Of a stretch of 64,000 nt of DNA, positions 15,019 to 63,473 are shown piece after piece. The DNA is from Zootoca vivipara (Eukaryota). The DNA lies in contig NC_083283.1 in assembly GCF_963506605.1 (NCBI RefSeq), positions 83,514,001 to 83,578,000 on the forward strand, written 5' to 3'. The stretch's first letter is position 1. Each line of letters starts with the position of its first letter. The notes beneath the pieces were generated by a model. The model saw nothing but the letters and a program-made list of their open reading frames with translations. It was not told where the DNA came from and searched no databases. Both the position numbers and the translations under genes were made by a program.

Positions 15019-15190
15019 TATTGCATTGGTGTTTTATTGCTATGGCCGATGGCTGACACAAATGAAGATTTATTCATTCATTCATTGTGTGAGTGAACCT
15101 CAATCCACACAAGCACACCCCATTTAGCACTTTGTTGAATCCCATCCTTAAAAATTATGGGGGGGGGGGAATTCCCAGCAGTGTTCTCAC

Positions 15191-17614
15191 CTGAACCACA
15201 TGTTGACTTTCACCTGCATGTCTGGGGACTTCCTCAGATACATTGGAACTCCTTGGATTCTGCTGAGTGTTAGGAGGCTCCACAGAGAAAACAGGAAATA
15301 GGGGCCTGAGAAACCGGAACTCGCTGTTCAGAGACCCACCAGCTAAGCACACCTCGTAATTGTAAGCCTGGGATAGAGATCCAGCACCAGGATTCGCAGG
15401 GTTCTCCTGGGAATCTGGTCCCACAGGGAAATCGGCTGCAGAGTTGTAGGTTGCTATGAACTTTTCACGTTTCTGCAACTTGATTACAACAAATGCCACT
15501 ACAGAAATGAGAAAAATACTTGAGATGGCAGCCAAGCAGATGATCAAATACATAGTCAGGTTGGGGTCTTCCTCCTCCGCTGTTTCCTCCTTTGGGAGAG
15601 CCACACTTTTCAGATAAGGGTCAGAGAAGCCGTCCACTAGAAGGATTCTGAGCGTGGCAGAGGTGGACTGGGGAGGGTGGCCGTTGTCTTGGACAACCAC
15701 AATCAGATTCTGCTTGAAGCTGTCTCGGTTATTGACTGGCCTCAGGGTGGTCACTTCTCCATTCTGGGCCCCCACCGTGAACAGACCCGGTTCTGTGGCC
15801 TTCAGCAGCTGATAGGAAAGCCAAGAGTTCTGAGCAGAATCCCTGTCCACAGCCACCACCTTGGTGACCAGGTAGCCAGTCTCTGCCCCTCGGGGAACCA
15901 GGTCATTCGAGGGGGAAGTGCCATTCTGGAGAGGGTAGAGGATGAAGGGGGCATTGTCGTTTTCATCCACAACCTGAACACAGATTGTAACTTCTGAGCT
16001 CAGTGGAGGGGAACCTGAATCCACAGCTCTCACTGTCACATGGAAATCTTTTACTTCCTCATAATCCAGAGACCGAATGGCATACAGGTTCCCCGTTTCA
16101 GAGTTGATGGAGATGTAAGCGGATGTGGGGCCATCATTGACCTTCCCAGGCAAAAGCGAGTAGGTCACTTTGGCATTCTGCGCTGTGTCCAGATCAACAG
16201 CATGGACCGAATTGATCAGAAGACCAGGAATATTGTTTTCTCTTAACTGCATTTCATAGAATGGCTTTTCAAACACTGGAGGGTTGTCATTGACATCTGA
16301 GATTTGAACATGAAGTATTCTTGTGGAAGTGAGTCTGGGAGAGCCTTGGTCTGTGGCTGTGATAGTAATGTTATATTCACTGACTTTTTCTCTGTCCAGT
16401 GGCTGTTGGGTCACCAGCTGGTAATAGTTGTTCTCTGTGGGTTTGAGCACAAATGGCAGGTTTACTTCAGTGGTGCAGGCAGTTCTGCCACTTTCTCCAG
16501 AGTCCACGTCTGTGACACTAAAGAGGGCCACCACTGTGTCTGGGGGAGAATCCTCAGGTAAGGGACTGGTGATGGATGCAATTGATATCTCTGGAGCATT
16601 GTCGTTCTCATCCTCAATCTCTACAATGACTTTACAGTAAGCAGAAAGGCCCCCTCCATCTGTGGCTCTGATCTTCATCTCATAATTTGTGTTTTCTTCA
16701 TAATCAATTATACCTGAGATAGTAAGTTCCCCAGTATTTTTATTTAACCTGAATGATCTCTGCACATTTTCTGGCACTTGGCTGAATGAGTAAGTGATGT
16801 CAGCATTGGAACCAATATCCTTGTCTCTGGCTTCAACTCTTGTGACTAATGTTTCCAATGGGCTGTTTTCCATCAGTTTTTCATGGTACATGGATTTATT
16901 AAATAGAGGAGCATTATCATTGATGTCCAGAACGTCTATGATGATTTGTGCTGTTCCAGTTTTGCGGGGTATTCCTCCATCAACAGCTGAAAGGATTAGG
17001 AAAACCTGTGCTTCCACCTCACGGTCTAATGGTTTCTCCAATACTAGGTCTGCATATTTAGTACCATCACTGTGACTTTGCACATCCAGCCTAAAATATT
17101 TATTAGGACTAAGTGTGTAATTCTGAACAGTATTTTCTCCTTTGTCTGAATCTTGAGCTCTCTCCAAAGGGAATACAGTATTTATGTGAGTTTGCTCAGG
17201 TATTTCAAAAATAAATTGATCTTTAGAGAATTTGGGGGAATTATCATTCACATCCTCTATTTGAACTTCAATTCTATATAGCTTCAATGGATCTTCTAGA
17301 ACAATTTCAGAGAGCAGAACACAATGGTCATTCTGACCACAGAGAGCCTCTCGATCTATTTTTTCCTTTAATATCATGTTGCCAGAATGAGGATCCAGCT
17401 GGAAATACTGATTGGTGCTCTTAGAAACCAGCCGGGCTCTCCGATCAGAAAGGTTCTTTGCATCCACTTTCAAATCTTTCAGCACATTAGCCACCAGGGA
17501 CCCTGCTTTCCTTTCCTCTGGCACTGAATATTGGATGGAATTGCATATTGCCCCATACATGCAGAGAGACAGAAAGAAAAATGTCACTTGCCTGTTCCTG
17601 TTATTCATTTCCAT
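15191..17614 (-). CDS. PCDHB: Protocadherin beta-like exon, subfamily A (A2, last beta)
   Basis: ATG of MEMNNRNRQV at 17614 (the track start at 17869 is an upstream non-ATG extension); 6 EC, TM, beta signature SLSQAYNYEVCLAGGSLNSEFRFLRP; donor CAG|GTGAGA at 15191; read-through stop at 15155. Confidence 0.93.
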
Positions 17615-17830
17615 TGTTCCAGATTCACTCAAGACAGATTGAAGAACAGAAAAATATGTTGTTGTACTTAGCTGTATCCCTTTGCTGTATTTATTCCTGA
17701 AAATGCATACCACTGTCTCCCTCCTCCTGATTTTTGTTGCAATGAAGAGCTGTATCCCTTTTGCTTCCAGATTGTTTTGCCCTTGTCTATGCTTTCCAAA
17801 CAATCTTTTCTCTAAGAACATGTGCTGTGC

Positions 17831-17850
17831 AATGGCACCATCTTGTGTTT
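17831..17850 (-). promoter_or_regulatory. CSE/CTCF-like site, A2 promoter
   Basis: AAACACAAGATGGTGCCATT, ~220 bp upstream of the ATG. Confidence 0.7.
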
Positions 17851-18245
17851 GAAATACATATAACTGCAATCTTTGTCAGTTAACTGGTCCCCACCCTTTA
17901 CTATTAATCTCCATACAAAGTTCCTTACAGAGAAAGATATGGATTCAGATCTTGGGGTTTGCAGTTAATGTGAGCCTGTCTAGTGAAGGTGCATAAATAA
18001 CATTGACCCAATATTAACTGGAAGGTATGGAATGTATATACAAATTCATTATATGAACATGGAATTTTGCACACAGTTCAGGCCATCACTCAACTAAAGC
18101 CAGATAATGTAAACTAACCTCTGGATACATTTCACACATTAATGAGACAATATGTGAAAAATACAAACAATTGCCAATAATGGAGGCTGGCATGTTAAGG
18201 CAAATGGGGTACTGCCCCATCCACCTCTGTCTTGATGCTTACATA

Positions 18246-22630: not shown

Positions 22631-22688
22631 TAGTAATTATAGTCGGAGAAAGTAAGATGTAATAAGCTTTCTCCGACTATAATTACTA
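22631..22688. repeat. Perfect 22-bp inverted repeat with a 14-nt loop
   Basis: tagtaattatagtcggagaaag (22631..22652) and ctttctccgactataattacta (22667..22688) are exact reverse complements. Confidence 0.95.
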
Positions 22689-22697
22689 ATTGCTCAC

Positions 22698-25118
22698 CTG
22701 TTTCCCTGAATCTTCTTTCCCCACCTGGTCAGGAATATCTTGGGAAGCAGAAGGAGGGGTCTGGTTCACATTGAGGTTTGGGTCCCCCACAGAAAAAACA
22801 GGAATGAGGGGCCTGAGGAACCTGAACTCGCTGCTTAAGGACCCACCGGTTAAGCAAACATCATAGTGGTAACTCCTGGAAAGCGACCCGCTCTGAGAAT
22901 CCCCACAGTTCTCTGGGATGTCTGGTCTGGCAGGTGGGAAGTGAGGAGGGGCAGCGATAAAACTTTCCCTGGGATCCCTCCTGCAGATCTTGATGGCAGC
23001 AAAGGAAACAATGCAAACAAGGAACACAAAGGAGACTGCAGCCAGGCAGATCACCAAATACAAGGTCAAGCTCCCATCTTCTTCATGTTGGTCTTTACTA
23101 ATCTCCACAGCTTTCATATAAGGATCCGAAAAGCCACCCACGGGAAGGACATGGAGCATTGCAGTGCTGCTCTGGGGAGGGAGCCCGTTGTCCCTCACCA
23201 CTATCATGAGTCTCTGCTTGCTGGTGTCTCGCTCGCTCAGGGCTCTCCTGGTTCTCACTTCCCCATTCTGGGCTCCTATGCTGAAAAGACCAGGGTCTGT
23301 GGCCTTCAGCAGCTCATAGGAAAGCCACGAGTTCTGGCCAGAATCTCCATCCACAGCCACCACCTTGGTGACCAGGTAGCCAGACTCCACCGACTTGGGG
23401 ACCAGCTCATTGCAGGGGGATGTGCTGTTCTGAAGAGGGTAGAGGAAGAAGGGAGCGTTGTCGTTTTCATCTATGATGATGACTCGGACACTAACTTCTG
23501 AGCTGAGGGGAGGAGACCCTCCATCTGTAGCCCTCACTGTCACTTTGAAATCTTTGATCTGCTCATAATCCAGAGATCGGAGGGCATACAGATTTCCGCT
23601 TTCAGAGTTGACTGAGATGTAAGAGGCCACAAGGCCATCAGTGACCTTCCCAGGCAAAAGAGAGTAGGTGATCTTGGCATTCTTCTCAGTGTCCAGATCA
23701 GCAGCATGGACTGAGCCAATGAGCAATCCTGGAATATTGTTTTCCCGTATCTGCATTTCCCATGAAGACTTTTCAAATACTGGAGGGTTGTCATTGACAT
23801 CTGAGATCTGAACGTTAATCATTCTTGTGGAAGTGAGCCTGGGGGAGCCCTGGTCCACGGCTGTAATGGTAATATTATACTCTGAGACTTTCTCTCTGTC
23901 CAGGGAGCTTTGGACCAGAAGTTGGTAATAGTTATCCATCGTGGGTTTTAAGACAAAGGGAAGGTTTACCTCCACAGAGCACACCGTTCTGCCATTGTCT
24001 CCGGAGTCTCGGTCTGTGACAGTGAAGAGAGCCACAAGTGTCTCCAGGGGAGAATCTTCTGCCAAGGGACTAGTGATGGATATGATGGACACTTCAGGAA
24101 CATTGTCATTCACATCTTCAATCTCTACCAGGACCTTGCAGTGACCTGAAAGATCCCCTCCATCTGTTGCTCTGATGCTCATGCTGTAGGTGGTTTCTTT
24201 TTCATAATCAATTTCTCCCAAAACAGTTATTTCCCCAGTGAGATCATTTAAGTGGAATAAACGGTGTATTTTTTCAGGTACCCGATCAAATGAGTATGTT
24301 ATTCGTGCATTTGAACCAAAATCTGAATCTCTGGCTTCTACTTTGGAGACCAGGGTGTCCCTAGGGCTGTTTTCCTTTAACCTTACGTTATATTCAGAAT
24401 GAGTAAACTGGGGAAAATTATCATTGATGTCCAAAACCTTGATATTTATCTGAACTGTGCCTGTTCTCTGTGGCTCCCCTCCATCCACAGCTGTGAGAGT
24501 CAGTCCAAACTCTGCTGCTTCTTCCCTATCTAGAGGTTTCACCAAAATAAGGTCCAAATATTTGTTTCCAGTTCCATCACTTTTTACTTGGAGCCAGAAA
24601 TGCTCATTAGAACTGAGAGTGTAGTTTTGAACGTTATTTTTACCCAAATCTGTATCTTGTGCAGATTCCAAAGGGAACTGGGTGTTAATTGGGACATTCT
24701 CTGGAATATATAGCTTGAATTCCTTTTTTGAGAATTTGGGTGTATTGTCATTCACATCTTCTATCTCTATTTCTATACTGTAGATCTTTAAGGGGTTTTG
24801 GAGCACGATTTCAGAGAGCAGCAAGCAAGGATCAGTCTCACCACACAAAGCTTCCCGGTCTACTTTTTCATTTATCAGCAAATTCCCAGAGTGGGTATCA
24901 AGGTGGAAATATTGCTGTGTGCTTTTGGACACTAGCTGGGCTCTGCGAGCAGAGAGCTCCCCTGTTCCCAGTTTCAAATCCTTTAGCACATTAGCCACCA
25001 GAAATCCACTTTTCTTTTCTTCAGGCACAGAATAGCGTATTGAGATACACATCACTCTAGAAACAGAGAATAAGAGGAGGAGATACAGACCTTGCCTGTT
25101 CCTAATGCAGTCTTCCAT
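22698..25118 (-). CDS. PCDHB: Protocadherin beta-like exon, subfamily B (B3)
   Basis: Intact 6-EC/TM ORF; SLSRSYHYDVCLTGGSLSSEFRFLRP; donor CAG|GTGAGC at 22698; read-through stop at 22686. Confidence 0.93.
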
Positions 25119-25366
25119 TGTTTCTCTCCCTTCTTGGTTCTGGCCAAAAGACCAATTTTTTAGGTTTTCTCCAATGGCTTCCTGTGCTGTTGTGTAAATT
25201 CTTTCTTCTCCTCCTCCCTGTCGTGGTCAATGTTTGCTCCCTTGAATTTTGTATTTCCTTTCTAGAAAAGGAGCCTGCACCTCTCTAGTCCAGTTTTGTC
25301 TGCTCATAGCTTCCCCTCAGTGCTGCTGCAAAGCAATATTCTGAATAACAAATAATGTGCTTGCCA

Positions 25367-25691: not shown

Positions 25692-28115
25692 CTGACATCT
25701 CAGATGTGTTTCTTCTCCATTACAAGGCACTTCTTGGGACCCATTGGAACTCCTTGGATTCAGCTGAGTGTTAGGAGGCTCCACAGAGAAAACAGGGAAT
25801 AGGGGCCTGAGAAACCGGAACTCGCTGTTCAGAGACCCACCAGCTAAGCACACCTCATAGTTATAAGCCTGAGATAGAGATCCAGCACCAGGATCCGCAG
25901 AGATGATCTGGGAATCAGGTCCCACTTGGAAATTGGCTGCAGAGTTGTAAGTTCCTATGAACTTTTCACGTTTCTGCAACTTGATTACAACAAACGCCAC
26001 TACAGAAATAAGAAAGATGCTTGAGATGGCAGCCAAGCAGATGATCAAATACATAGTCAGGCTGGGGTCTTCCTCCTCCGCTGTTTCCTCCTTTGGAAGA
26101 GCCACACTTTTCAGATAAGGGTCAGAGAAGCCGTCCACTAGAAGGATTCTGAGCGTGGCAGAGGTGGACTGGGGAGGATGTCCGTTGTCTCGGACGACCA
26201 CAACCAGATTCTGCTTGAAGCTGTCTCGGTTACTGACTGGTCTCAGAGTGGTCACTTCTCCATTCTGGGCCCCCACCGTGAACAGACCCGGTTCTGTGGC
26301 CTTCAGCAGCTGATAGGAAAGCCAAGAGTTCTGAGCAGAATCCCTGTCCACAGCCACCACCTTGGTGACCAGGTAGCCAGTCTCTGCCCCTCGGGGAACC
26401 AGGTCATTCGAGGGGGAAGTGCCATTCTGGAGAGGGTAGAGGATGAAGGGGGCATTGTCATTTTCATCCACAACCTGAACGTGGATCGTAACTTCTGAGC
26501 TCAGTGGAGGGGAACCTGAATCCACAGCCCTCACCGTCACATGGAAATCTTTTACCTCCTCATAATCCAGAGACCGAATGGCATACAGGTTCCCCGTTTC
26601 AGAGTTGATGGAGATGTAAGAGGAAGTGGGGCCATCATTGACCTTCCTAGGCAAAAGCGAGTAGGTCACTTTGGCATTCTGCGCTGTGTCCAGATCAACA
26701 GCATGGATGAAACCGATCAGAAGACCAGGAATATTGTTTTCTCTTAACTGCATTTCATAGGATGGCTTTTCAAACACTGGAGGGTTGTCATTGACATCTG
26801 AGATTTGAACATGAAGTATTCTTGTGGAAGTGAGTCTGGGAGAGCCTTGGTCTGTGGCTGTGATGGTGATATTATACTCAGAGGCTTGTTCTCTGTCCAG
26901 TGGCTGTTGGGTCACCAGCTGGTAATAGTTGTTCTCTGTGGGTTTGAGCACAAATGGCAGGTTTACTTCAGTGGTGCAGGCAGTTCTGCCACTGTCTCCA
27001 GAGTCCACGTCTGTGACACTAAAGAGGGCCACCACTGTGTCTGCGGGAGAGTCCTCAGGTAAGGGACTGGTGATGGAAGTGATTGATATCTCTGGAGCAT
27101 TGTCGTTCTCATCCTCAATCTCTACAATAACTTTACAGTAAGCAGAAAGTCCCCCTCCATCTGTGGCTCTGATGTTTATCTCATAATTTGTGTTTTCTTC
27201 ATAATCAATCGTTGCTGAAGTTGTAAGTTCCCCGGTGTGTTTATTTAACTTGAACATTCTCAACACATTTTCTGGCACTTGGCTGAATGAATAAGTGATA
27301 TGGGCGTAGGAACCAATATCCCTGTCAGTGGCTTCAACTTTGGTGACCAGTGTACCTGGTAGAAGGTTTTCCAGCAGTTGCACATTATATACAGATTTAT
27401 TAAAGTGAGGGGCATTGTCATTGGTGTCCAGAACTTGAACAATAATGTTTGTACTTCCGCTTCTTCTTGGGATCCCTCCATCAACAGCTGTCAGCATTAA
27501 TGTAATCTGTGGCTTCTCTTCACGGTCCAAAGGCTTTTCTAACACCAGTTCTGCATATTTGCTACCATCAGTATGACTTTGCACATCCAGCCTAAAATGT
27601 TCATTTGGACTAAGAGTATAGTTCTGAACAGTATTTTCTCCTTTGTCTGAATCTTCAGCTTTTTCCAAAAGGAATCGGGTGTTCATGGGCGTCTGCTCAG
27701 GTATTTCCAAAACAAATTGTTTTTCAGAGAATATGGGGGAATTATCATTCACGTCCTCTATCTGAATTTCAATTCTGTGTAGCTGCCTTGGCTTTTCCAG
27801 TACCATTTCACAAAGCAGAACACAAGGGTCATTCTGACCACACAGGGACTCTCGGTCTATTTTTTCTTTTATTATCACATCCCCAGATTGGGGATCCAGC
27901 TCAAAATACTGCCTGGCAGTCTTAGAAAGCAGCTGCGCTCTCCGAGCAGACAACTCCTTTACTTCCATTTTCAAATCTTTCAGCACATTAGCCACCAGAG
28001 ACCCACTTTTCTTTTCCTCAGGCACTGAATAGCGGAAGGACTCACACACCACACCACAGGTACAGAGACAGATAAAGACGAGACAAACTTGCCTGCTATG
28101 ATGGAGGGTTTTCAT
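25692..28115 (-). CDS. PCDHB: Protocadherin beta-like exon, subfamily A (A4)
   Basis: ATG of MKTLHHSRQV at 28115 (track start 28139 is TTG); donor CAG|GTGAGG at 25692; read-through stop at 25668. Confidence 0.93.
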
Positions 28116-28380
28116 TTTCTTTCCTAGCTTTGTTCTCAATGCAGATTGGAATCCAAGGTGCCTCTTTGTAAAGCAGTTGCCAGAATTGCCCCTTTCTCTG
28201 TTATAAGGTCCCTTTGTTGTCCTTGTTTCATGAAGTAGATGCAGCAGTGCTTGCCTCCTACAGATTCTGCAGATTTTGTCGCAATCAAGAGCTGCTACCC
28301 TTTTTTTCCAGATTCCTTCCTTCTAATGGTCACAGCTTTCTGGCACAGCACAGCAGCTCTGATTTCTACTGCCTGTGCAA

Positions 28381-32549: not shown

Positions 32550-34970
32550 CTGTTTCATTGGCTTTCTGCTCTCCAATGCATCAGGAGTATCTTGGGAAGC
32601 AGAAGGAGGGGTCTGGTTCACATTGAGGTTTGGGTCTCCCACAGAAAAAACAGGAATGAGGGGCCTGAGGAACCTGAACTCGCTGCTTAAGGACCCACCG
32701 GTTAAGCAAACATCGTAGTGGTAACTCCTGGAAAGCGACCCGCTCTGAGAATCCCCACAGTTCTCTGGGATGTCGGGTCTGGCAGGTGGGAAGTGAGGAG
32801 GGGCAGCGATCAAACTTTCCCTGGGATCCCTCCTGCAGATCTTGATGGCAGCAAAGGAAACAATGCAAACGAGGAACACAAAGGAGACTGCAGCCAGGCA
32901 GATCACCAAATACAAGGTCAAGCTCCCATCTTCTTCATGTTGGTCTTTACTAATCTCCACAGCCTTCATATAAGGATCTGAAAAGCCACCCACGGGAAGG
33001 ACATGGAGCATTGCAGTGCTGCTCTGGGGAGGGAGCCCGTTGTCCCTCACCACTATCATGAGTCTCTGCCTGCTGGTGTCTCGCTCGGTCAGGGCTCTCC
33101 TGGTTCTCACTTCCCCATTCTGGGCTCCTATGCTGAAAAGACCAGGGTCTGTGGCCTTCAGCAGCTCATAGGAAAGCCACGAGTTCTGGCCAGAATCTCC
33201 ATCCACAGCCACCACCTTGGTGACCAGGTAGCCAGACTCCACCGACTTGGGGACCAGCTCATTGCAGGGGGATGTGCTGTTCTGAAGAGGGTAGAGGAAG
33301 AAGGGAGCGTTGTCGTTTTCATCTATGATGATGACTCGGACAGTAACTTCTGAGCTGAGGGGAGGAGACCCTCCATCTGTAGCCCTCACTGTCACTTTGA
33401 AATCTTTGATCTGCTCATAATCCAGAGATCGGAGGGCATACAGATTTCCACTTTCAGAGTTGACTGAGATGTAAGAGGCCACAAGGCCATCAGTGACCTT
33501 CCCGGGCAAAAGGGAGTAGGTGATCTTGGCATTCTTCTCAGTGTCCAGATCAGCAGCATGGACTGAGCCAATGAGCAATCCTGGAATATTGTTTTCCCGT
33601 ATCTGCATTTCCCATGAAGACTTTTCAAATACTGGAGGGTTGTCATTGACATCTGAGATCTGAACATTAATCATTCTTGTTGAAGTGAGCCTGGGGGAGC
33701 CCTGGTCAACACCTGTGATGGTGACATTATACTCTGAGACCTTCTCTCTGTCCAAGGGACTTTGGACCACAAGCTGGTAATAGTTATTCATAGTGGGCTT
33801 TAACATAAAGGGAAGGTTTGTCTCCACAGAGCACACAGTTCTACCATTGTCTCCAGAATCTCGGTCTGTGACGGTGAAGAGGGCAACAAGTGTCTCCAGG
33901 GGAGAATCTTCTGCCAAAGGACTAGTGATGGATATGATGGACACTTCAGGGACATTGTCATTCACATCTTCAATCTCTACCAGGACCTTGCAATGCCCCC
34001 AAAGACCCCCTCCATCTGTTGCTCTGATGTTCATGCTGTAGCTGGTTTCTTTTTCATAATCAAGCTGACCAGAAAGAGTCATTTCCCCATTGATTTCATT
34101 TAGGGAAAACAATTTGTATATTTTTTCAGACACCCGGTGGAATGAGTAGGTGATCTGTGCGTTTGAACCAAAATCCAAATCTGTGGCTTCTACTTTGAAG
34201 ACCAGAGTGCCCTGAGGGCTGTTTTCCTTTAACCTTACTTTATATTCAGGTTGAGTAAACTGAGGAGAATTGTCATTGATATCCAAAACATTAATATTTA
34301 TTTGAACTGTGCCTGTTCTCTGAGGCACACCTCCATCCACAGCAATGAGAGTCAATCCAAAGTGTGAGTTATTCTCTCTGTCTAGTGGCTTCTGCAGAAC
34401 AAGATGCACATATTTCTGTCCATCCTCATTGCTTTCCACATATAGTCGGAAATGCTCATTGGGACTGAGCATGTATTTTTGGATACTGTTTTCTCCTAAG
34501 TCCTCATCTTGGGCAGATTCCAAGAGAAATTGTGTGTTTGTCAGAACATTCTCTGGAATTTCCAGATCAAGTTTATCTTTAGAGAATTTGGGAGTATTGT
34601 CATTCACATCTTCTATCTTCAATTCTATACTGTAGATATTTAAGGGGTTTTGAAGCACTATTTCAGACAGCAGCATGCAAGGATCAGTCTGGCCACATAA
34701 AGCTTCTCTGTCTATTTTATCATTTAACAGCAAATTCCCAGAGTGAGTATCAAGGTTGAAATATTGCTTTGTGCTTTTGGACACTAGCTGGGCTCTGCGA
34801 GCAGAGAGCTCCCCTATTCCAAGTTTCAAATCCTCCAACACATTAGCCACCAAAAACCCATTTTTCTTTTCTTCAGGTACAGAATAGTGAAATGAAATGC
34901 AGACTGTTTTCAACACAAAGAGAAAAAGCAAGAGATACAGACCTTTCATCTTTCTGAAGATATCGTTCAT
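32550..34970 (-). CDS. PCDHB: Protocadherin beta-like exon, subfamily B (B5)
   Basis: ATG of MNDIFRKMKG at 34970 (track start 34979 is GTG); donor CAG|GTGAGT at 32550; read-through stop at 32541. Confidence 0.93.
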
Positions 34971-35200
34971 GGTTTCCACCTCTTCCAGAGTGTTAAAGCA
35001 CTGGCCAAATCTTCTTTCATCCCCTGACCATCTTTGCAGCTTGATAAATAACCTTTGTGCTGCAATTTTTATTGTTTCATTCTCCTGAGCCTCATATCGT
35101 CACACTACCATCTACCTCCCGTATCATTGTTATACTGCCTCTTCAAGGTTTCAGCAAATGCAAGAATACAATATTCTCAGTGTCCATGAAAATGTTGGCC

Positions 35201-42505: not shown

Positions 42506-44926
42506 CTTTTTTCCTGATTCTTCCATCCCCACCTGGTCAGAAATATCTTGGGAAGCAGAAGGAGGGGTCTGGTTCACATTGAGGTTTGGGTCTCCCACAG
42601 AAAAAACAGGAATGAGGGGCCTGAGGAACCTGAACTCGCTGCTTAAGGACCCACCGGTTAAGCAAACATCGTAGTGGTAACTCCTGGAAAGCGACCCACT
42701 CTGAGAATCCCCACAGTTCTCTGGGATGTCGGGTCTGGCAGGTGGGAAGTGAGGAGGGGCAGCAATAAAACTTTCCCTGGGATCCCTCCTGCAGATCTTG
42801 AGAGCAGCAAAGGAAACAATGCAAACAAGGAACACGAAGGAGACTGCAGCCAGGCAGATCACCAAATACAAGGTCAAGCTCCCATCTTCTTCATGTTGGT
42901 CTTTACTAATCTCCACAGCCTTCATATAAGGATCCGAAAAGCCACCCACGGGAAGGACATGGAGCATTGCAGTGCTGCTCTGGGGAGGGAGCCCGTTGTC
43001 CCTGACCACTATCATGAGTCTCTGCTTGCTGGTGTCTCGCTCGGTCAGGGCTCTCCTGGTTCTCACTTCCCCATTCTGGGCTCCTATGCTGAAAAGACCA
43101 GGGTCTGTGGCCTTCAGCAGCTCATAGGAAAGCCACGAGTTCTGGCCAGAATCTCCGTCCACAGCCACCACCTTGGTGACCAGGTAGCCAGACTCCACCG
43201 ACTTGGGGACCAGCTCGTTGCAGGGGGATGTGCTGTTCTGGAGCGGGTAGAGGAAGAAGGGAGCGTTGTCGTTTTCGTCTATGATTACGACTCGGACAGT
43301 AACTTCTGAGCTGAGGGGAGGAGACCCTCCATCTGTAGCCCTCACTGTCACTTTGAAATCTTTGATCTGCTCATAATCCAGAGATCGGAGGGCATACAGA
43401 TTTCCACTTTCAGAGTTGACTGAGATGTAAGAGGCCACAAGGCCATCAGTGACCTTCCCGGGCAAAAGGGAGTAGGTGATCTTGGCATTCTTCTCAGTGT
43501 CCAGATCAGCAGCATGGACTGAGCCAATGAGCAATCCTGGAATATTGTTTTCCCGTATCTGCATTTCCCATGAAGACTTTTCAAATACTGGAGGGTTGTC
43601 ATTGACATCTGAGATTTGAACGTTAATAATTCTTGTGGAAGTGAGCCTGGGGGAGCCCTGGTCCACGGCTGTAATGGTGATATTATACTCTGAGGCCTTC
43701 TCTCTGTCCAAGGGACTTTGGACCACAAGCTGGTAGTAGTTATTCATAGTGGGTTTTAATATAAAGGGAAGGTTTACTTCCACAGAGCACATGGTTCTGC
43801 CATTGTCTCCGGAGTCCCCGTCTGTGACGGTGAAGAGGGCAACAAGGGTCTCCAGGGGAGAATCTTCTGCCAAAGGACTAGTGATGGATATGATGGACAC
43901 TTCAGGGACATTGTCATTCACATCCTCAATCTCTACCAGGACCTTGCAATGCCCCAAAAGACCCCCTGCATCTGTTGCTCTGATGTTCATGCTGTAGCTG
44001 GTTTCTTTTTCATAATCAAGCTGACCAGAAAGGGTGATTTCCCCCGTGACTTCATTTAGGTGGAACAGATCGTAAATTTCTGCAGGCACTCTGTAGAATG
44101 AGTAGACAATTTGTGCATTTGAACCAAAATCCAAATCTGTAGCTTCCACTTTGGAAATCAGGGTGTCTCGAGGACTGTTTTCCTTTAACCTTATTTTATA
44201 TTCAGTCTGTGTAAACTGTGGGGAATTATCATTATTGTCAAGAACATCAATATTTATTTTAACTGTGCCTGTTCTCTGTGGCTCCCCTCCATCCACAGCA
44301 GTGAGAGTCAGTTCAAAGTGTGGCTCCTTCTCCCTGTCCAGTGGCTTCTTCAGAACAAGATCGACATACTTGTTTCCATCCTCATCACTTTTAACATCAA
44401 GCCGGAAATGTTCATTGGGACTGAGTGTGTAGTTTTGGATGTTATTTCTCCCCAGGTCCGCATCTTGGGCAGATTCCAAGGGGAAATGTGTATTTGGTGA
44501 GAAATTTTCAGGAATTTCCAGATCAAATACCTTTTTAGAGAATTTGGGGACATTATCATTTACGTCTTCTATCTTGATTTCAATACTGAAGATCTTCAAG
44601 GGATTTTGCAACACAATTTCAGACTGTAATAAGCAAGGATCACTCTGGCCACATAATGTTTCTCGGTCTGTTTTATCATCTATCAATAAATTCCCCGAGT
44701 GGGTATCAAGGTGAAAATATTGCTTACTGTTCTTAGAAACAAGCTGGGCTCTGCGAACAGAGAGCTCCCCTTTTCCCAGTTTCAAATCCTCCAGCACATT
44801 AGCCACCAAAGACCCCCTTTTCTTTTCTTCGGGCACAGAATAGTGAAGTGAAATACTTAGTGCTCCAGGAAGACAAAGGAAAAGCAAAAAATACAGACCT
44901 TGTTCCTTTCTGTAGCCGTCTCCCAT
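42506..44926 (-). CDS. PCDHB: Protocadherin beta-like exon, subfamily B (B7)
   Basis: Intact ORF MGDGYRKEQG...; donor AAG|GTGAGG at 42506; read-through stop at 42470. Confidence 0.93.
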
Positions 44927-45150
44927 GGCTCAAGAATCTCTGGCCAAAATACGAAGCTTCTGACAGTCACCCAATGATAATCTCTGCTGCTGTAGAAATG
45001 AATTTGATGCTGCAGTGTTGACGGCTTTGCTGTGCTGTATGTTATCTCTTTATCACAAATGGAAGTCAACCGTCCTTTGTTTCAGCCACCTTTGTTTGTG
45101 CTCATGGCTTCCTTCACAAAATTCTGAATTCCAGTTCATGTCTTTGCCTA

Positions 45151-46961: not shown

Positions 46962-49385
46962 CTGAACCACATGTTGACTTTCACCTGCATGACTTGGGAT
47001 TCCTTCAGAATCATTGGAACCCCTTGGATTCACCTGAGTGTTAGGAGGCTCCACAGAGAAGACAGGAAATAGGGGCCTGAGAAACCGGAACTCGCTGTTC
47101 AGAGACCCACCAGCTAAGCACACCTCATAGTTGTAAGCCTGGGACAGAGATCCAGCACCAGGATCTGCAGAGTTCTCCTGGGAATCTGGTCCCACTGGGA
47201 AATTGGCTGCAGAGTTGTAGGTTCCTATGAACTTTTCACGTTTCTGCAACTTGATTACAACAAACGCCACTACAGAAATGAGAAAAATACTTGAGATGGC
47301 AGCCAAGCAGATGATCAAATACATAGTCAGGCTGGGGTCTTCCTCCTCCGCTGTTTCCTCCTTTGGGAGAGCCACACTTTTCAGATAAGGGTCAGAGAAG
47401 CCGTCCACTAGAAGGATTCTGAGCGTGGCAGAGGTGGACTGGGGAGGATGTCCATTGTCTCGGACGACCACAACCAGATTCTGCTTGAAGCTGTCTCGGT
47501 TACTGACTGGCCTCAGGGTGGTCACTTCTCCATTCTGGGCCCCCACCGTGAACAGACCCGGTTCTGTGGCCTTCAGCAGCTGATAGGAAAGCCAAGAGTT
47601 CTGAGCAGAATCCCTGTCCACAGCCACCACCTTGGTGACCAGGTAGCCAGTCTCTGCCCCTCGGGGAACCAGGTCATTCGAGGGGGAAGTGCCATTCTGG
47701 AGAGGGTAGAGGATGAAGGGGGCATTGTCATTTTCATCCACGACCTGAACACAAACCGTAACTTCTGAGCTCAGTGGAGGGGAACCTGAATCCACAGCCC
47801 TCACCGTCACATGGAAATCTCTTACCTCCTCATAATCCAGAGACCGAATGGCATACAGGTTCCCCGTTTCAGAGTTGATGGAGATGTAAGAGGATGTGGG
47901 GCCATCATTGACCTTCCCAGGCAAAAGCGAGTAGGTCACTTTGGCATTCTGCGCTGTGTCCAGATCAACAGCATGGATGAAACCGATCAGAAGACCAGGA
48001 ATATTGTTTTCTCTTAACTGCATTTCATAGAATGGCTTTTCAAACACTGGAGGGTTGTCATTGACATCTGAGATTTGAACATGAAGTATTCTTGTGGAAG
48101 TGAGTCTGGGGGAGCCTCTGTCCGTGGCTGTGATAGTAATGTTATATTCACTGACTTTTTCTCTGTCCAGTGGCTGTTGGGTCACCAGCTGGTAATAGTT
48201 GTTCTCTGTGGGTTTGAGCACAAATGGCAGGTTTACTTCAGTGGTGCAGGCAGTTCTGCCACTTTCTCCAGAGTCCACGTCTGTGACACTAAAGAGGGCC
48301 ACCACTGTGTCTGGGGGAGAATCCTCAGGTAACGAACTGGTGATGGAAGTGATTGATATCTCTGGAGCATTGTCATTCTCATCTTCAATGTCCACAATTA
48401 CTTTGCAGTAAGCTGAAAGCCCCCCTCCATCTGTGGCTTTGATGTGCATCTCATAACTGGTGATTTCTTCATAGTCAGTCATCCCTACAATTGTAAGTTC
48501 CCCAGTTTTTTTGTTTAACTTGAATGACCTCAACACATTTTCTGGAACTTCACTGAATGAATAAGTGAGGCGAGCATTGGTACCAAAATCCCTGTCAGTG
48601 GCTTCAACTTTTGCGACCAGTGTATCCAATGGGCTGTTTTCCATTAGTTTCACTTTGTACTCAGATTGTGGAAACTGAGGTACATTATCATTAGCATCCA
48701 GAATATCGATGAGAAGCTGTGCTGTTCCAGTTCTTTTGGGGATCCCCCCATCGATAGCTGACAGCGTAAGATACATGTGTGGATTCACCTCACGGTCCAG
48801 CGATTTCTCTAACACCAGTTCTGCGTATTTGCTACCATCACTTTGACTTTTCAAATTCAGCCTAAAATGTTCATTTGGACTAAGGGTGTAGTTCTGAACA
48901 GCATTTTCTCCTTTGTCTGAGTCTTGAGCTTTCTCCAAAGGAAATCGGGTATTTGTTGGGATTTGCTCTGATATTTCAAGAAGGAATTGGTTTTTAGAGA
49001 ATTTTGGGGAATTATCATTCACATCCTCTATCTGAATTTCAATTCTGTGTAGCTGCAATGGCTTTTCCAGCACAATTTCAGACAGTAGAATACATGGTTC
49101 ATTCTGACCACACAGGGACTCTCGATCTATTTTATCCTTTACTGTCACATCCCCTGAACGAGGATCCAGCTGGAAATACTGCTTGGAGCTCTTAGAAACC
49201 ATCCGGGCTCTCCGAGCAGACAGCTCCTTTGCATCCACTCTCAAATCTTTTAGCACATTCGCTACCAGAGACCCACTTTTCTCCTCCTCTGCCACTGAAT
49301 AGCGGAAAGACTCACACATTGCTATGCATGCACAGAGATACAGGGAAAAAGACCAAACTTGCCTGATCTTGAGCTGCATTTCCAT
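46962..49385 (-). CDS. PCDHB: Protocadherin beta-like exon, subfamily A (A8)
   Basis: ATG of MEMQLK at 49385 (an in-frame upstream ATG exists at 49418); donor CAG|GTGAGT at 46962; read-through stop at 46914. Confidence 0.93.
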
Positions 49386-49630
49386 TCTCCCAGCCTCTCC
49401 TCCTGAAATGCAAGGCATTGTCCTCTTGTCTATTCTAAGGCATGTATCTTCTTAACTGTATTTATCCTTTGAATGTGACACAGTGTCCTGCTTATTCCTA
49501 CTGAAATTTCTGAAGACTGGCTTGCAGTAGGGATCTGGTGTTTTTCCTGCGCTGATTCCTTTGTCTAATGGCGACAGCTCTTGAGGAGAGCAACTGCTGC
49601 TCCCCAATTTCCTTCTTTTATCTTGTGCAA

Positions 49631-55233: not shown

Positions 55234-57654
55234 CTTTTCCACTGATTCTTCTTTCCCCACCTGGTCAGGAATATCTTGGGAAGCAGAAGGAGGGGTCTGG
55301 TTCACATTGAGGTTTGGGTCCCCCACAGAAAAAACAGGAATGAGGGGCCTGAGGAACCTGAACTCGCTGCTTAAGGACCCACCGCTTAAGCAAACATCGT
55401 AGTGGTAACTCCTGGAAAGCGACCCGCTCTGAGAATCCCCACAGTTCTTTGGGATGTCGGGTCTGGCAGGTGGGAAGTGAGGAGGGGCAGCAATAAAACT
55501 TTCCCTGGGATCCCTCCTGCAGATCTTGATGGCAGCAAAGGAAACAATGCAAACGAGGAACACAAAGGAGACTGCAGCCAGGCAGATCACCAAATACAAG
55601 GTCAAGCTCCCATCTTCTTCATGTTGGTCTTTACTAATCTCCACAGCCTTCATATAAGGATCCGATAAGCCACCCACGGGAAGGACATGGAGCATTGCAG
55701 TGCTGCTCTGGGGAGGGAGCCCGTTGTCCCTGACCACTATCATGAGTCTCTGCTTGCTGGTGTCTCGCTCGCTCAGGGCTCTCCTGGTTCTCACTTCCCC
55801 ATTCTGGGCTCCTATGCTGAAAAGACCAGGGTCTGTGGCCTTCAGCAGCTCATAGGAAAGCCAGGAGTTCTGGCCAGAATCTCCGTCCACAGCCACCACC
55901 TTGGTGACCAGGTAGCCAGACTCCACTGATTTGGGGACCAGCTCATTGCAGGGGGATGTGCTGTTCTGAAGAGGGTAGAGGAAGAAGGGAGCGTTGTCGT
56001 TTTCATCTATGATTACGACTCGAATAGTAACTTCTGAGCTGAGGGGAGGAGACCCTCCATCTGTAGCCCTCACCGTCACTTTGAAATCTTTGATCTGCTC
56101 GTAATCCAGAGATCGGAGGGCATACAGATTTCCGCTTTCAGAGTTGACTGAGATGTAAGAGGCCACAAGGACATCAGTGACCTTCCCAGGCAAAAGGGAG
56201 TAGGTGATCTTGGCATTCTTCTCAGTGTCCAGATCAGCAGCACGGACTGAGCCAATGAGCAATCCTGGAATATTGTTTTCCCGTATCTGCATTTCCCATG
56301 AAGACTTTTCAAATACTGGAGGATTGTCATTGACATCTGAGATTTGAACGTTAATGATTCTTGTTGAAGTGAGCCTGGGGGAACCCTGGTCAACAGCTGT
56401 GATGGTGATATTATACTCTGAGACCTTCTCTCTGTCCAAGGGACTTTGTACCACAAGCTGGTAATAGTTATTCATAGTGGGTTTTAATATAAAGGGAAGG
56501 TTTACTTCCACAGAGCACATGGTTCTGCCATTGTCTCCGGAGTCTCGGTCTGAGACACTGAAGAGAGCCACAAGTGTCTCCAGGGTAGAATCTTCTGCCA
56601 AAGGACTAGTGATGGATATTACGGACACTTCAGGGACATTGTCATTCACATCCTCAATCTCTACCAGGACCTTGCAGTGACCTGAAAGGCCCCCTCCATC
56701 TGTTGCACTGATGCTCATGTCATAGCTGCTTTCTTTTTCATAATCAAGCTGACCAGAAAGGGTGATTTCCCCCGTGACTTCATTTAGGTGGAACAAATCA
56801 TATATTTCTTCCGGTACCCGATTGAATGAGTAGGCAATTTGTGCATTTGAACCAAAATCCAAATCTGTAGCTTCCACTTTGGAAATCAGGGTGTCCTGAG
56901 GACTGTTTTCCTTTAACCTTACTTTATATTCAGTCTGTGTAAACTGTGGGGAATTATCATTATTGTCAAGAACATCAATATTTATTTTAACTGTGCCTGT
57001 TTTCTGTGGCTCCCCTCCATCTACAGCTGTGAGAGTCAGTTCCAAGTGTGGGTCCTTCTCCCTGTCCAGTGGTTTCTTCAGGACAAGATCCACATATTTC
57101 CTTCCATTCTTGTTGCTCTCCATGCTAAGCATGAAATGCTCATTGGGACTGAGCGTGTAGTTTTGGATGTTATTTTTCCCCAGGTCCGCATCTTGGGCAG
57201 ATTCCAAGGGGAAATGTGTATTTGGAGAGACATTTTCAGGAATTTCCAGATCAAATACCTTTTTAGAGAATTTGGGGACATTATCATTTATGTCTTCTAT
57301 CTTGATTTCAATACTGAAGATCTTTAAGGGATTTTGCAACACAATTTCAGACTGTAAGAAGCAAGGATCACTCTGGCCACATAATGTTTCTCGGTCTATT
57401 TTATCATTTATCAATAAATTCCCTGAGTGGGTATCAAGGTGAAAATATTGCTTACTGTTCTTAGAAACAAGCTGGGCTCTGCGAACAGAGAGCTCCCCTT
57501 TTCCCAGTTTCAAATCCTCCAGGACATTAGCCACCAAAGACCCCCTTTCCTTTTCTTCGAGCACAGAATAGTGAAGTGAAATACTTAGTGCTCCAGGAAG
57601 ACAAAGGAAAAGCAAAAAATACAGACCTTGTTCCTTTCTGTAGCCGTCTCCCAT
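55234..57654 (-). CDS. PCDHB: Protocadherin beta-like exon, subfamily B (B9)
   Basis: Intact ORF closely related to B7; donor AAG|GTGAAT at 55234; read-through stop at 55147. Confidence 0.93.
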
Positions 57655-58692
57655 GGCTCAAGAATCTCCGGCCAAAATATGAAGTTTCTGACAGTCATCC
57701 AATGATAATCTCTGCTGCTGTATGAAGGAATTTTATGCTGCAGTGTTGACGGCTTTGCTGTGAGGTATATTATCTCTTTATCACAAATGGAAGTCACCCG
57801 TCCTTTGTTTCAGCCACCTTTGTTTGTGCTCATGGCTTCCTGTGAGTTCCTTCAAAAAATTCTGAATTCCAGTTCATGTCTTTGCCTATACTACCACCGT
57901 GTGGCTGAGCATGAAAAATCACTAAGATTCTGAAAATCACGCTGAATGCAGTGCACATTATACTGAACAGGAAAGGTTCAGATTTACTGTATCTCTATTA
58001 ACAGAAAACTGTTTTATTACTAAGAAGATGTCTCTTTTCCATATCAATGAATGTAGATATCACAAAACACTGCATTACCTTCTGTGGTTGTTCTACACTG
58101 TTGTGCATGAGATTCAATCTCATACTGGGAAATTCAGATGCACAGCACATATGGTGCTCTTGTGGAACAATCCCCCCATCAAACATTTTGCAATAACGAA
58201 AGTGACAGGAAAATACCTTGGAAAGTGTAAGATTACTTTTGCTTGATCCAAGTGCTATATGGCCTGCACACAGAGAATGTAACAGGCTATTAATATCTAC
58301 ATAAGTATTAGGATAACAACACTATATCAATTTATATAAGAATGTACGGGAATATATTACATCACATTTTTGTATTCCTCCCCCTATTCACAGCTTTGTT
58401 CTTCTTTTTCCTCACGTCCCCCTCTTTCCCCCCCTCTGTATCACTTTATTTCTATTTTTTAAAAGTAGGAATAATGAATGAATGAATGAATGGAAGCAAC
58501 CTGCATCTCAGCTTTTGTGTAATACTTCCTCCTTCCATATAGAGAGTTCAAAGAGGTTATGAAGTTTTTCTATAGCACAGCAAACCACAAACATATTAAT
58601 ATGAAAGTTTATTTCCCTCTATGCAAGGACAGAAACAACCGTATCAGAATAGAATGAGACAGGTAAAATGGAAAAGGAAAAAATGGGAAGAA
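57655..58692. repeat. Segmental-duplication copy of the B7 upstream region (44927..46253)
   Basis: Colinear high similarity to 44927..46253, except for the Sauria SINE present only in the B7 copy and small indels. Confidence 0.9.
57889..57908 (-). promoter_or_regulatory. CSE/CTCF-like site, B9 promoter
   Basis: TCAGCCACACGGTGGTAGTA, identical to the B7 site. Confidence 0.65.
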
Positions 58693-60916: not shown

Positions 60917-61049
60917 TGTGGATATTTTAAAGTTGGTAAAATATTTATTTGGAAATCTAAAATATAAATTTAATGAAAATTATTATCAAACTAGAGAGAG
61001 AGAAATCTGAAATTGAACCACACAGAAAGGATTCAAATGCTACACTCAC

Positions 61050-63473
61050 CTGAACCACATGTTGACTTTCCTCTGGATGACTTGGGACTCCTTCAGAATC
61101 ATTGGAACCCCTTGGATTCACCTGAGTGTTAGGAGGCTCCACAGAGAAGACAGGAAATAGGGGCCTGAGAAACTGGAACTCGCTGTTCAGAGACCCACCA
61201 GCTAAGCACACCTCATAGTTGTAAGCCTGAGATAGAGATCCAGCACCAGGATCCGCAGGGTTCTCCTGGGAATCTGGTCCCACTGGGAAATTGGCTGTGG
61301 AGTTGTAGGTTCCTATGAACTTTTCACGTTTCTGCAACTTGATTACAATAAATGCCACTACAGAAATGAGAAAGATGCTTGAGATGGCAGCCAAGCAGAT
61401 GATCAAATACATAGTCAGGTTGGGGTCTTCCTCCTCCGCTGTTTCCTCCTTTGGGAGAGCCACACTTTTCAGATAAGGGTCAGAGAAGCCGTCCACTAGA
61501 AGGATTCTGAGCGTGGCAGAGGTGGACTGGGGAGGATGTCCGTTGTCTCGGACGACCACAACCAGATTCTGCTTGAAGCTGTCTCGGTTACTGACTGGTC
61601 TCAGAGTGGTCACTTCTCCATTCTGGGCCCCCACCGTGAACAGACCCGGTTCTGTGGCCTTCAGCAGCTGATAGGAAAGCCAAGAGTTCTGAGCAGAATC
61701 CCTGTCCACAGCCACCACCTTGGTGACCAGGTAGCCAGTCTCTGCCCCTCGGGGAACCAGGTCATTCGAGGGGGAAGTGCCATTCTGGAGAGGGTAGAGG
61801 ATGAAGGGGGCATTGTCATTTTCATCCACAACTTGAACGTGGATCGTAACTTCTGAGCTCAGTGGAGGGGAACCTGAATCCACAGCCCTCACCGTCACAT
61901 GGAAATCTTTTACCTCCTCATAATCCAGAGACCGAATGGCATACAGGTTCCCCGTTTCAGAGTTGATGGAGATGTAAGAGGAAGTGGGGCCATCATTGAC
62001 CTTCCCAGGCAAAAGCGAGTAGGTCACTTTGGCATTCTGCGCTGTGTCCAGATCAACAGCATGGATGAAACCGATCAGAAGACCAGGAATATTGTTTTCT
62101 CTTAACTGCATTTCATAGAATGGCTTTTCAAACACTGGAGGGTTGTCATTGACATCTGAGATTTGCACATGAAGTATTCTTGTGGAAGTGAGTCTGGGAG
62201 AGCCCCTGTCTGTGGCTGTGATAGTAATGTTATATTCACAGACTTTTTCTCTGTCCAGTGGCTGTTGGGTCACCAGCTGGTAATAGTTGTTCTCTGTGGG
62301 TTTGAGCACGAATGGCAGGTTTACTTCAGTGGTGCAGGCAGTTCTGCCACTGTCTCCAGAGTCCACGTCTGTGACACTGAAGAGGGCCACCATTGTGTCT
62401 GGGGGAGAGTCCTCAGGTAAGGGACTGGTGATGGATGTGATGGTAATCTCTGGAGCATTGTCGTTCTCATCCTCAATCTCTACAAAGACTTTACAGTAAG
62501 CAGAAAGACCTCCTCCATCTGTGGCTCTGATGTTCATCTCATAATTTGTGCTTTCTTCATAATCAATTGTTGCTGCAGTAGTAAGTTCCCCGGTGTGTTT
62601 ATTTAACTTGAACATTCTCAACACATTTTCTGGCACTTGGCTGAATGAATAAGTGATATGTGCGTAGGAACCAATATCCCTATCAGTGGCTTCAACTCTT
62701 GTGACTAGTGTATCCAATGGGCTGTTTTCCATTAGTTTTACTTTGTACTCAGATTGTGGAAACTGAGGCAAGTTATCATTGTTATCCAGAACATCAATAA
62801 TAATTTGCACTGTTCCAGTTCTTTTGGGGATCCCCCCATCAATAGCTGACAGCGTAAGATACATGTGTGGATTCACCTCACGGTCCAGTGGTTTCTCTAA
62901 CACCAGTTCTGCGTATTTGCTACCATCACTTTGACTTTTCACATCCAGCCTAAAATGTTCATTAGGACTAAGAGTGTAGTTCTGAACAGCATTTTCTCCT
63001 TTATCTGGATCTTCTGCTCTTTCCAAAGGAAATCTGATACCCACAGGAGTCTGCTCAGGTATTTCAAAAATAAATTTATTCTTAGAGAATTTGGGGGAAT
63101 TATCATTCACGTCCTCTATCTGAACTTCTATTCTGTGTAACTTCCATGGTTCTTCCAGCACAATTTCAGACAGTAGAATACATGGTTCATTCTGACCACA
63201 CAGGGACTCTCGATCTATTTTATCCTTTACTGTCACATCCCCTGAATGAGGATCCAGCTGAAAATACTGCTTGGAGCCCTTAGAAACCAGCCGGGCTCTC
63301 CGAGCAGAGAGCTCCTTTGCATCCACTCTCAAATCTTTTAGCACATTCGCTACCAGAGACCCACTTTTCTCCTCCTCTGCCACTGAATAGCGGAAAGACT
63401 CACACATTGCTATGCATGCACAGAGATACAGGGAAAAAGACCAAACTTGCCTGATCTTGAGCTGCATTTCCAT
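61050..63473 (-). CDS. PCDHB: Protocadherin beta-like exon, subfamily A (A10)
   Basis: Intact ORF MEMQLKIRQV...; donor CAG|GTGAGT at 61050; read-through stop at 60957. Confidence 0.93.

What the first reader, a model, noticed from the sequence alone, without database searches (positions are those of the whole stretch)
15186..61052. All nine beta exons keep a phase-0 splice donor exactly 37 codons after FLRP, while read-through tails are random
Seen: (C/A)AG|GTGA(G/A) donors with last exon bases at 15191, 22698, 25692, 32550, 35607, 42506, 46962, 55234 and 61050. In both diverged subfamilies the donor is 37 codons after EF(R/Q)FLRP, even though the last ~15 residues vary. The unspliced tails are unrelated (2-30 aa). 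The A6 tail ends inside a BovB insertion and the A10 tail runs into LINE-derived A-rich sequence. Inference: selection acts on splicing rather than read-through, so these are true variable exons. Phase 0 also fits the gamma constant exon (the gamma exon here has the same CAG|GTGAGT phase-0 donor), so beta-to-gamma chimeric splicing is an alternative or additional outcome.
Basis: partly seen in the sequence, partly recalled or inferred. Interest (0 to 1): 0.75.

Follow-up and report, generated by a model that had tools for sequence, protein, structure and literature searches.

The report
Lizard beta-protocadherins share a tail exon
In this lizard the beta-protocadherin neuron-identity genes, described in print as single-exon genes, all end in the same splice signal and are likely spliced onto one shared, transcribed tail exon that was likely recycled from a dead copy of the same genes.

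Summary
Nine minus-strand protocadherin-beta exons (16 of 16 in the scanned cluster) end in a phase-0 AG|GTRAR donor 37 codons after FLRP. Conserved beta donors alone are known from mammals.

The new part is their likely partner, a single-copy terminal exon at 12618 to about 10069. It has a phase-0 acceptor, a 39-residue frame, a stop and a 2.4-kb 3' UTR. Public runs cover it while the upstream intron is almost empty. Among 130 named database proteins, 93 gene models from 19 squamate species join beta exons to this tail, and none carries the alpha/gamma constant motif.

The tail is not a gamma constant-exon remnant. It aligns without gaps to the EC5–EC6 linker of variable exons, best to beta ones, and its acceptor AG is the old "PLQ" codon.

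So squamate beta genes likely have their own constant exon, made from a decayed paralog. The anole paper and reviews say beta has none.

The parts
61050..63494 (-). Pcdh-beta variable exon (open-frame start to donor); donor CAG|GTGAGT
55234..57657 (-). Pcdh-beta variable exon, second subfamily; donor AAG|GTGAAT
46962..49451 (-). Pcdh-beta variable exon; donor CAG|GTGAGT
42506..44929 (-). Pcdh-beta variable exon, second subfamily; donor AAG|GTGAGG
35607..38051 (-). Pcdh-beta variable exon; donor CAG|GTGAGA; read-through tail ends in a short retroelement 3'-end piece
32550..35099 (-). Pcdh-beta variable exon, second subfamily; donor CAG|GTGAGT
25692..28322 (-). Pcdh-beta variable exon; donor CAG|GTGAGG
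22698..25226 (-). Pcdh-beta variable exon, second subfamily; donor CAG|GTGAGC
15191..17875 (-). Last Pcdh-beta variable exon; donor CAG|GTGAGA; its last 37 residues are identical to database models P0002/P0003, which continue into the shared tail
12619..15190 (-). Intron between the last beta donor and the shared exon (2572 nt); near-zero coverage outside repeats
12619..12655 (-). 3' splice site (pyrimidine run + CAG), a relic of the codons at the end of EC5 (ENDNA...LYPLQ) of a beta-type variable exon
12499..12618 (-). Coding part of the shared terminal (constant) exon: 39 residues in phase 0 plus TAG; homologous to the EC5-EC6 linker and start of EC6
10069..12498 (-). 3' UTR of the shared exon; AATAAA at 10083-10078; contig coverage ends at 10069
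3256..5799 (-). First Pcdh-gamma variable exon, phase-0 donor CAG|GTGAGT; marks the downstream edge of the beta cluster

Best explanation
The nine exons are protocadherin-beta variable exons that each end in a phase-0 donor and are likely cis-spliced to one beta-specific, transcribed terminal exon at 12618 to about 10069, which would add the same 39-residue cytoplasmic tail and 2.4-kb 3' UTR to every isoform and was likely exonised from a decayed beta-type variable exon. Inferred mechanism: each exon is transcribed from its own promoter (assumed from alpha/gamma, not tested). Its cap-proximal donor joins the first strong acceptor downstream of the array, and the poly(A) site near 10070 ends the transcript before the gamma array. 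Inferred origin: the CAG of the 'LYPLQ' codons at the end of EC5 in a last, dead paralog became a 3' splice site. A stop arose right after 'WLSYQ'. Formerly extracellular EC6 sequence became a cytoplasmic tail and fixed new residues: the D-x-D pair became N-x-N and an invariant D-W-L-x-Y end appeared. Shown: donors, acceptor, frame, single copy, exon-limited coverage and strand, homology to the linker, conservation in database models. Inferred: the splice junctions themselves in this genome, promoter choice, direction and age of the exonisation, function of the tail.
For: Donors: 16 of 16 at codon 37, with conservation falling off after +5. Acceptor TTTTTTATGTCCTTTGCAG|GCT opens a 39-aa phase-0 frame without a start codon of its own at the front and is single-copy in G000. 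Coverage: X18 contigs have depth 28-47 in the 10 non-repeat bins of 9997-12557, against 0 in 8 of 10 intron bins (12755-14724; the others 1.1 and 12.4). X1 shows the same pattern at lower depth. Raw RNA reads X19 and X21 lie mostly with first mates on +, which in most stranded libraries means RNA from the - strand. The X18 contig ends at 10069, 9 nt past AATAAA. Database models: 93 of 130 named proteins end in this tail, from 19 species (lacertids, an amphisbaenian, a teiid, a cordylid, a skink, an anguid, iguanians, five geckos, a pit viper). Many different variable ends join one tail per species, and both subfamilies take part. Each of the nine window exons has a spliced counterpart with 32-37 of its last 37 residues identical. 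10 of 39 tail positions are invariant among 22 distinct tails. Origin: in an ungapped slide of the 117-nt coding part over 345,768 positions, the 18 best non-self hits are the linker sites of all 16 beta exons (55-61 of 117) and both gamma exons (56, 58); the best background is 53. With 12 intron and 36 downstream bases added, beta scores 77-82 of 165, gamma 72-74, background at most 68. A tail HMM hits the same place in 10 of 10 window exons. The 4 best of 5 PDB hits include Pcdh-gamma B4, B2 and A4, and the three alignments shown fall at that linker (E 8e-4 to 0.016).
Against: No joint 15191-to-12618 was listed, and raw-read depth at the 5' end of the exon was zero (about 6 in 100 of each raw run was read), so no junction read was seen. 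X18 and X1 are not on record as RNA; their RNA nature is read from the empty intron. X1 has a low-depth contig running unspliced across the acceptor (12600-12821, depth 2.5). 26 of the 130 database proteins are read-through-like forms of the same kind of exon and 11 end otherwise. The 93 spliced ones are automated gene models whose RNA support I could not inspect. 15 of 16 donors have an AATAAA/ATTAAA within 600 nt (background 0.88 per 600 nt), so local polyadenylation is possible. The frameshifted exon keeps its donor too. At protein level the tail scores higher on the gamma linker (19.2 bits) than on beta (8.6-9.5 bits), so a beta-type rather than gamma-type parent is only favoured, not proven.
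Confidence: 0.88

Rival explanations
1. Mammal-like single-exon beta genes: transcripts read through the donors and are polyadenylated locally, the donors are relics, and the 12618 exon is a separate transcript that annotation pipelines join by mistake or that is used only rarely.
For: Mouse beta mRNAs are polyadenylated locally, and no splicing to alpha or gamma constant exons was detected (PMC3431597, passages). Mammalian beta exons also carry consensus donors (PMC3601302, passage). Poly(A) hexamers follow 15 of 16 donors. 26 of 130 database proteins are read-through-like. No junction was listed.
Against: Read-through tails vary from 2 to 30 aa and shift frame between paralogs. The downstream exon keeps a 36-40 aa frame in the donors' phase in 19 species. 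Its coverage starts at the acceptor. The hexamer frequency is close to background.
Confidence: 0.07
2. Beta donors splice mainly to gamma constant exon 1, giving beta-gamma chimeras.
For: Gamma constant exon 1 has a phase-0 acceptor (CTCTTGCAG|CAAGCA). Rare intercluster transcripts are reported in mammals (PMC3601302, passage).
Against: The gamma acceptor is about 293 kb from the last beta donor, against 2.6 kb for 12618, with a used poly(A) site in between. 0 of 130 named database proteins carry DWR(F/Y); these were found with tail or cytoplasmic-region queries, which favours tail-bearing forms.
Confidence: 0.03
3. Same architecture, different origin: the shared exon descends from a gamma-type variable exon, or is a remnant of a duplicated gamma constant region.
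For: Protein scores favour the gamma linker. A review proposes that beta arose by duplication of the gamma cluster with later loss of constant exons (PMC7811963, passage).
Against: DNA identity, including the acceptor bases, favours beta (77-82 against 72-74 of 165), and only beta exons have the PLQ codons whose AG falls exactly on the acceptor. There is no Cadherin_tail (PF15974) match at this place, and the homology maps to the EC5-EC6 linker, not to a constant exon.
Confidence: 0.12

Closest known systems
Pcdh-alpha and Pcdh-gamma variable/constant architecture (PMC7811963 and PMC3601302, passages)
   Same: Tandem ~2.4-kb variable exons with phase-0 donors spliced to a shared downstream cytoplasmic tail.
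   Different: One terminal exon of 39 codons instead of three constant exons (about 125 aa for gamma). No Cadherin_tail domain. The tail derives from ectodomain sequence.
Mammalian Pcdh-beta cluster (PMC3431597, PMC3601302, passages)
   Same: Position between alpha constant exons and gamma variable exons; six-EC, TM and short cytoplasmic part in one exon; consensus 5' splice site at the exon end.
   Different: Mammalian beta genes are reported as unspliced single-exon genes. Here a dedicated, transcribed, conserved acceptor exon follows the array.
Anole Pcdh-beta subcluster (Jiang et al. 2009, PMC2764143; parts 1-3 of 5 and passages read)
   Same: Same clade, similar number of beta exons (15 there, 16 here), same order.
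   Different: Described as lacking constant exons, and its RT-PCR covered only delta, alpha and gamma. Anole third-party entries are read-through forms: P0101 shares 37 of 37 end residues with the spliced model P0032, and P0097 36 of 37 with P0034.
Xenopus tropicalis gamma1/gamma2 clusters (PMC4978886, passages)
   Same: The middle subcluster has a constant region of its own.
   Different: There it is a duplicated gamma constant region (74% identical), and beta is absent. Here it is a new exon unrelated to gamma constant exons.
Automated database isoform models 'protocadherin beta-16-like isoform X1...' of squamates
   Same: They already contain exactly this join.
   Different: They carry no description of a constant exon or of its origin.

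Membership tests
Clustered Pcdh-beta (variable exons) | Lies between the alpha constant exons and the gamma variable exons | tested here: met
   Cadherin_tail hits at C8:83714276-83677528 upstream and C8:83236465-83213372 downstream; 16 exons between C8:83677000 and the gamma exon
Clustered Pcdh-beta (variable exons) | One large exon encoding the cadherin repeats, TM and a short cytoplasmic part | tested here: met
   819-906 aa open frames; Cadherin_2, Cadherin and Cadherin_C_2 in the database counterpart P0002
Clustered Pcdh-beta (variable exons) | Phylogenetic grouping with mammalian, anole and coelacanth beta | not tested
   No tree built; nearest named proteins are labelled beta-like and include anole beta entries
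Clustered Pcdh-beta (variable exons) | Consensus 5' splice site at the exon end | tested here: met
   16 of 16
Mammalian-type single-exon Pcdh-beta cluster | No constant exon; each gene is a single exon | tested here: not met
   Conserved, covered, in-phase terminal exon at 12618; so the locus is not filed as a mammalian-type beta cluster
Alpha/gamma-type variable-constant cluster | Variable exons share one splice phase with a downstream acceptor | tested here: met
   Phase 0 at all donors and at 12618
Alpha/gamma-type variable-constant cluster | Three constant exons encoding the Cadherin_tail domain | tested here: not met
   One terminal exon; no PF15974 match there. It works like such a region but is not homologous to it
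Alpha/gamma-type variable-constant cluster | Variable-to-constant junctions present in mRNA | tested here: inconclusive
   Exon covered and intron nearly empty, but no joint listed; joins seen only in database models
Alpha/gamma-type variable-constant cluster | Own promoter with a CTCF-binding conserved element before each variable exon | not tested
   Not examined
Exonised relic of a Pcdh variable exon | Colinear homology to a variable exon extending across the new splice site | tested here: met
   18 of the 18 best ungapped non-self hits are linker sites; intron end reads C-P-L-Q against Y-P-L-Q
Exonised relic of a Pcdh variable exon | Intermediate or unexonised state in an outgroup | not testable with these tools
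   No non-squamate beta locus could be retrieved

The most novel reading that the evidence does not exclude
The beta constant exon is older than squamates. It arose once in an early amniote from a dead variable exon, and mammals lost it, at the same beta-gamma interval where Slc25a2 and Taf7 were inserted (insertion per PMC2764143). The single-exon state of mammalian beta would then be a derived loss, and the orphan consensus donors of mammalian beta exons would be its scars. The tail's invariant D-W-L-x-Y end would be a convergent counterpart of the D-W-R-(Y/F) motif at the start of the alpha and gamma constant domains.
Probability: 0.25. Interest if true: 0.82.

Novelty: new variant of a known kind. 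Interest (0 to 1): 0.66.

Why it matters
That beta lacks a constant region is treated as the defining difference between Pcdh-beta and alpha/gamma, and it was carried over to lizards without a test. If the joins are real, squamate beta proteins have a shared, conserved intracellular tail and a shared 3' UTR. The whole subcluster could then be tagged, probed or removed at one exon, which one review names as the obstacle for beta in mammals. It bears on an open question stated in a review: whether beta came from variable-exon duplication or from whole-gamma duplication with loss of constant exons. This exon is not a leftover gamma constant exon. It is also a clear, datable case of a variable-constant gene architecture re-forming by exonisation of a dead paralog, with extracellular sequence turned into a cytoplasmic tail. 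The joins already sit unremarked in automated annotations, which lowers the surprise somewhat.

Tried and rejected
Run search: no RNA holder listed; this is not used as evidence either way. Only 4 of the 21 listed runs yielded laid data.

Direct junction evidence: none. A likely reason is that the last 30 nt before donor 15191 are identical to those before 46962, and a variant near 12595 would break contigs. That is inference, not a test. Junctions from the other eight donors were not examined.

Range outside squamates: three word-based protein searches listed only squamates. 45 of 165 hits were not listed, and the tail-only searches scored just 32 and 37 candidates, so this is no evidence of absence. 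The 50%-representative search was crowded by giant cadherins and fused models; none of the best 150 carried the tail. The Atlas search gave no usable hit.

Origin tests that were weak: gapped local DNA alignment against shuffles gave z of only 0.5-3.8. An nhmmer profile of the beta exons found nothing in 15190-10000. The ungapped slide, tail HMM and PDB search carried the result. No relic of the TM or of earlier EC domains was detected in the intron or UTR. Pfam has no family for the tail.

Literature: seven full-text searches listed no paper describing a beta constant exon. Subscription journals are mostly not covered. Wu and Maniatis 1999, Wu 2001, Tasic 2002 and Wang 2002 were not read and are known only through the reviews cited. 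No supplements were read; those of the anole paper may bear on the beta exon ends.

Earlier findings: nothing on this locus.

No donor strength model was run, and no fold or complex job was sent, since no partner is claimed.
Full report
What the window is. It holds ten large minus-strand cadherin frames: nine of two alternating subfamilies and one gamma-type at 5799-3238. The window is G000:C8:83514001-83578000. Cadherin_tail matches place the alpha constant exons about 100-136 kb upstream of the window and the gamma constant exons about 280-300 kb downstream. The nine exons are thus the 3' part of the beta subcluster. Seven more lie upstream, one of them frameshifted (163 kb scanned for frames of 100 aa or more with cadherin motifs). 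The nearest named proteins are from lacertid lizards.

The observation. All nine donors are as stated: phase 0 and 37 codons after FLRP, with tails of 2-30 aa. The seven upstream exons agree. The motif AG|GTRAR has a background rate of 4.1e-4, and conservation across 16 paralogs is 14-16 of 16 from -2 to +5 but 5-12 of 16 from +6 to +40. Three details need correcting. Some tails are homologous intron sequence read in shifted frames. The tail after 61050 shows no repeat origin. In other species the distance from FLRP to the junction is 37 in 69 of 93 proteins and 30-39 in 23 more. Conserved donors at beta exon ends are also reported for mammals (PMC3601302, passage), so the finding as worded is not new in itself.

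The partner exon. 2572 nt after the last beta donor lies TTTTTTATGTCCTTTGCAG|GCT. It opens a phase-0 frame of 39 residues ending in QNDWLTYQ and a stop, single-copy in the genome. Four runs were laid on 9800-15700. X18 contigs cover 10069-12594 at depth 28-47 outside repeats and are absent from 8 of 10 intron bins; X1 repeats the pattern at lower depth. Raw RNA reads of X19 and X21 fall in the same exon, mostly with first mates on +, the usual sign of a minus-strand RNA. Coverage ends 9 nt after an AATAAA at 10083-10078. Against my reading: no joint to 15191 was listed, raw depth at the acceptor was zero, X18 and X1 are not on record as RNA, and X1 has a depth-2.5 contig across the acceptor.

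Conservation. Three protein searches gave 130 named proteins, all squamate. 93 end in this tail, 26 are read-through-like, 11 end otherwise, and none has the alpha/gamma DWR(F/Y) motif. The 93 come from 19 species, from geckos to a pit viper, and within a species many different variable ends join one tail. Each window exon has a spliced counterpart with 32-37 of 37 end residues identical. Ten of 39 positions are invariant among 22 distinct tails. These are automated models; that such isoform models usually rest on RNA-seq is my recollection and was not checked. In the anole, third-party entries are read-through forms of the same exons that other models splice. The anole paper says beta lacks constant exons and tested only delta, alpha and gamma by RT-PCR (PMC2764143, parts 1-3 of 5 and passages). 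That those entries stem from that paper is inferred from its third-party submission.

Origin. Searching the genome with the tail gave weak hits inside long cadherin frames (E 0.13). An ungapped slide then showed that the 18 best non-self hits among 345,768 positions are the same site in all 16 beta and both gamma exons in the region, the stretch after 'LYPLQ' up to 'WLSY(Q/E)'. With flanks, beta scores 77-82 of 165, gamma 72-74 and background at most 68. The intron end reads TGT CCT TTG CAG, against TAC CCT CTC CAG in beta exons, and a few bases upstream the two still share GAAAA..ACAATGC. A tail profile and a PDB search point to the same place. Calling this site the EC5-EC6 linker follows from its position before the last cadherin repeat. 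The role of its D-x-D pair in calcium binding is recalled. The simplest account is that a last beta paralog decayed, its PLQ codon became a splice acceptor, and a stop cut the frame after WLSYQ. Protein scores lean to gamma and DNA to beta, so the parent is favoured, not settled. Gapped alignment and an nhmmer profile were too weak to show this homology.

How it likely works. Promoter choice picks one variable exon, as described for alpha and gamma (PMC7811963, PMC3601302, passages). Its donor joins the 12618 acceptor, and polyadenylation near 10070 closes the unit ahead of gamma. All isoforms would then share a 39-residue tail and a 3' UTR. Read-through forms with local poly(A) sites, as in mouse (PMC3431597, passages), may coexist: 15 of 16 donors have a hexamer within 600 nt, near the background of 0.88. 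Beta-to-gamma chimeras are in frame but unsupported. The tail's function is unknown. My best guess is a trafficking or adaptor-binding role through the invariant D-W-L-x-Y end, by analogy with the cytoplasmic control of gamma surface delivery; this is untested.

Novelty. Seven full-text searches listed no paper on a beta constant exon; the library lacks most subscription journals, and four primary papers were not read. Xenopus has a duplicated gamma constant region instead of beta (PMC4978886, passages), which is a different solution. The range outside squamates could not be tested. Verdict: a new variant of a known kind, interest 0.66, confidence 0.88 in the shared beta exon.

Noticed in passing
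each beta exon, e.g. window 15926/15925, 23430/23429 (minus strand): Every intact beta exon still carries the ancestral cryptic acceptor (the CAG of PLQ followed by the linker, phase 0). One snake gene model (P0063) joins a variable end to such a linker, so internal splicing into the next exon is conceivable.
   Followed up: partly
G000:C8, window coordinates 97337-94905 (upstream of the window): A beta exon split by a frameshift into 213- and 541-aa frames keeps an intact GAG|GTGAGA donor at codon 37.
   Followed up: partly
27 nt before donors 55234, 42506 and 22698; 23 nt before 46962 and 15191: Second, weaker donor-like sites: CAG|GTGGGG in phase 0 at codon 28, and CAG|GTGAAA out of phase.
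   Followed up: no
database protein P0016 (Hemicordylus): This model joins the shared tail directly after YNYE, skipping the FLRP region, which suggests an alternative donor inside the variable exon.
   Followed up: no
window 58803-58741: A 63-nt copy (89%) of the donor-proximal intron of 61050 lies further down the same intron; a similar copy lies at 70487 outside the window.
   Followed up: no
window 59191-60322 (+): Two overlapping frames (177 and 221 aa) inside an apparent ~1.9-kb insertion after the 61050 exon; no Pfam match, possibly a DNA transposon fragment.
   Followed up: partly
window 49864-51315 (+) and 8818-9411 (-): Retroelement fragments: RVT_1 (E 6e-41) and a weak zf-RVT match.
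   Followed up: partly
window 3238-5799 (-): The first gamma exon has an apparent extra stretch of about 30 residues in EC5 (after IERDIV) compared with the beta exons.
   Followed up: no
beta exons, 3' halves: Within each subfamily EC4 to the cytoplasmic part are nearly identical while the 5' halves diverge, which suggests gene conversion; the anole paper reports little of it in beta.
   Followed up: no
window 10289 and 10425: Many raw-read first mates begin here (X21, X19), 200-350 nt inside the contig-defined 3' end; alternative ends or internal priming.
   Followed up: no
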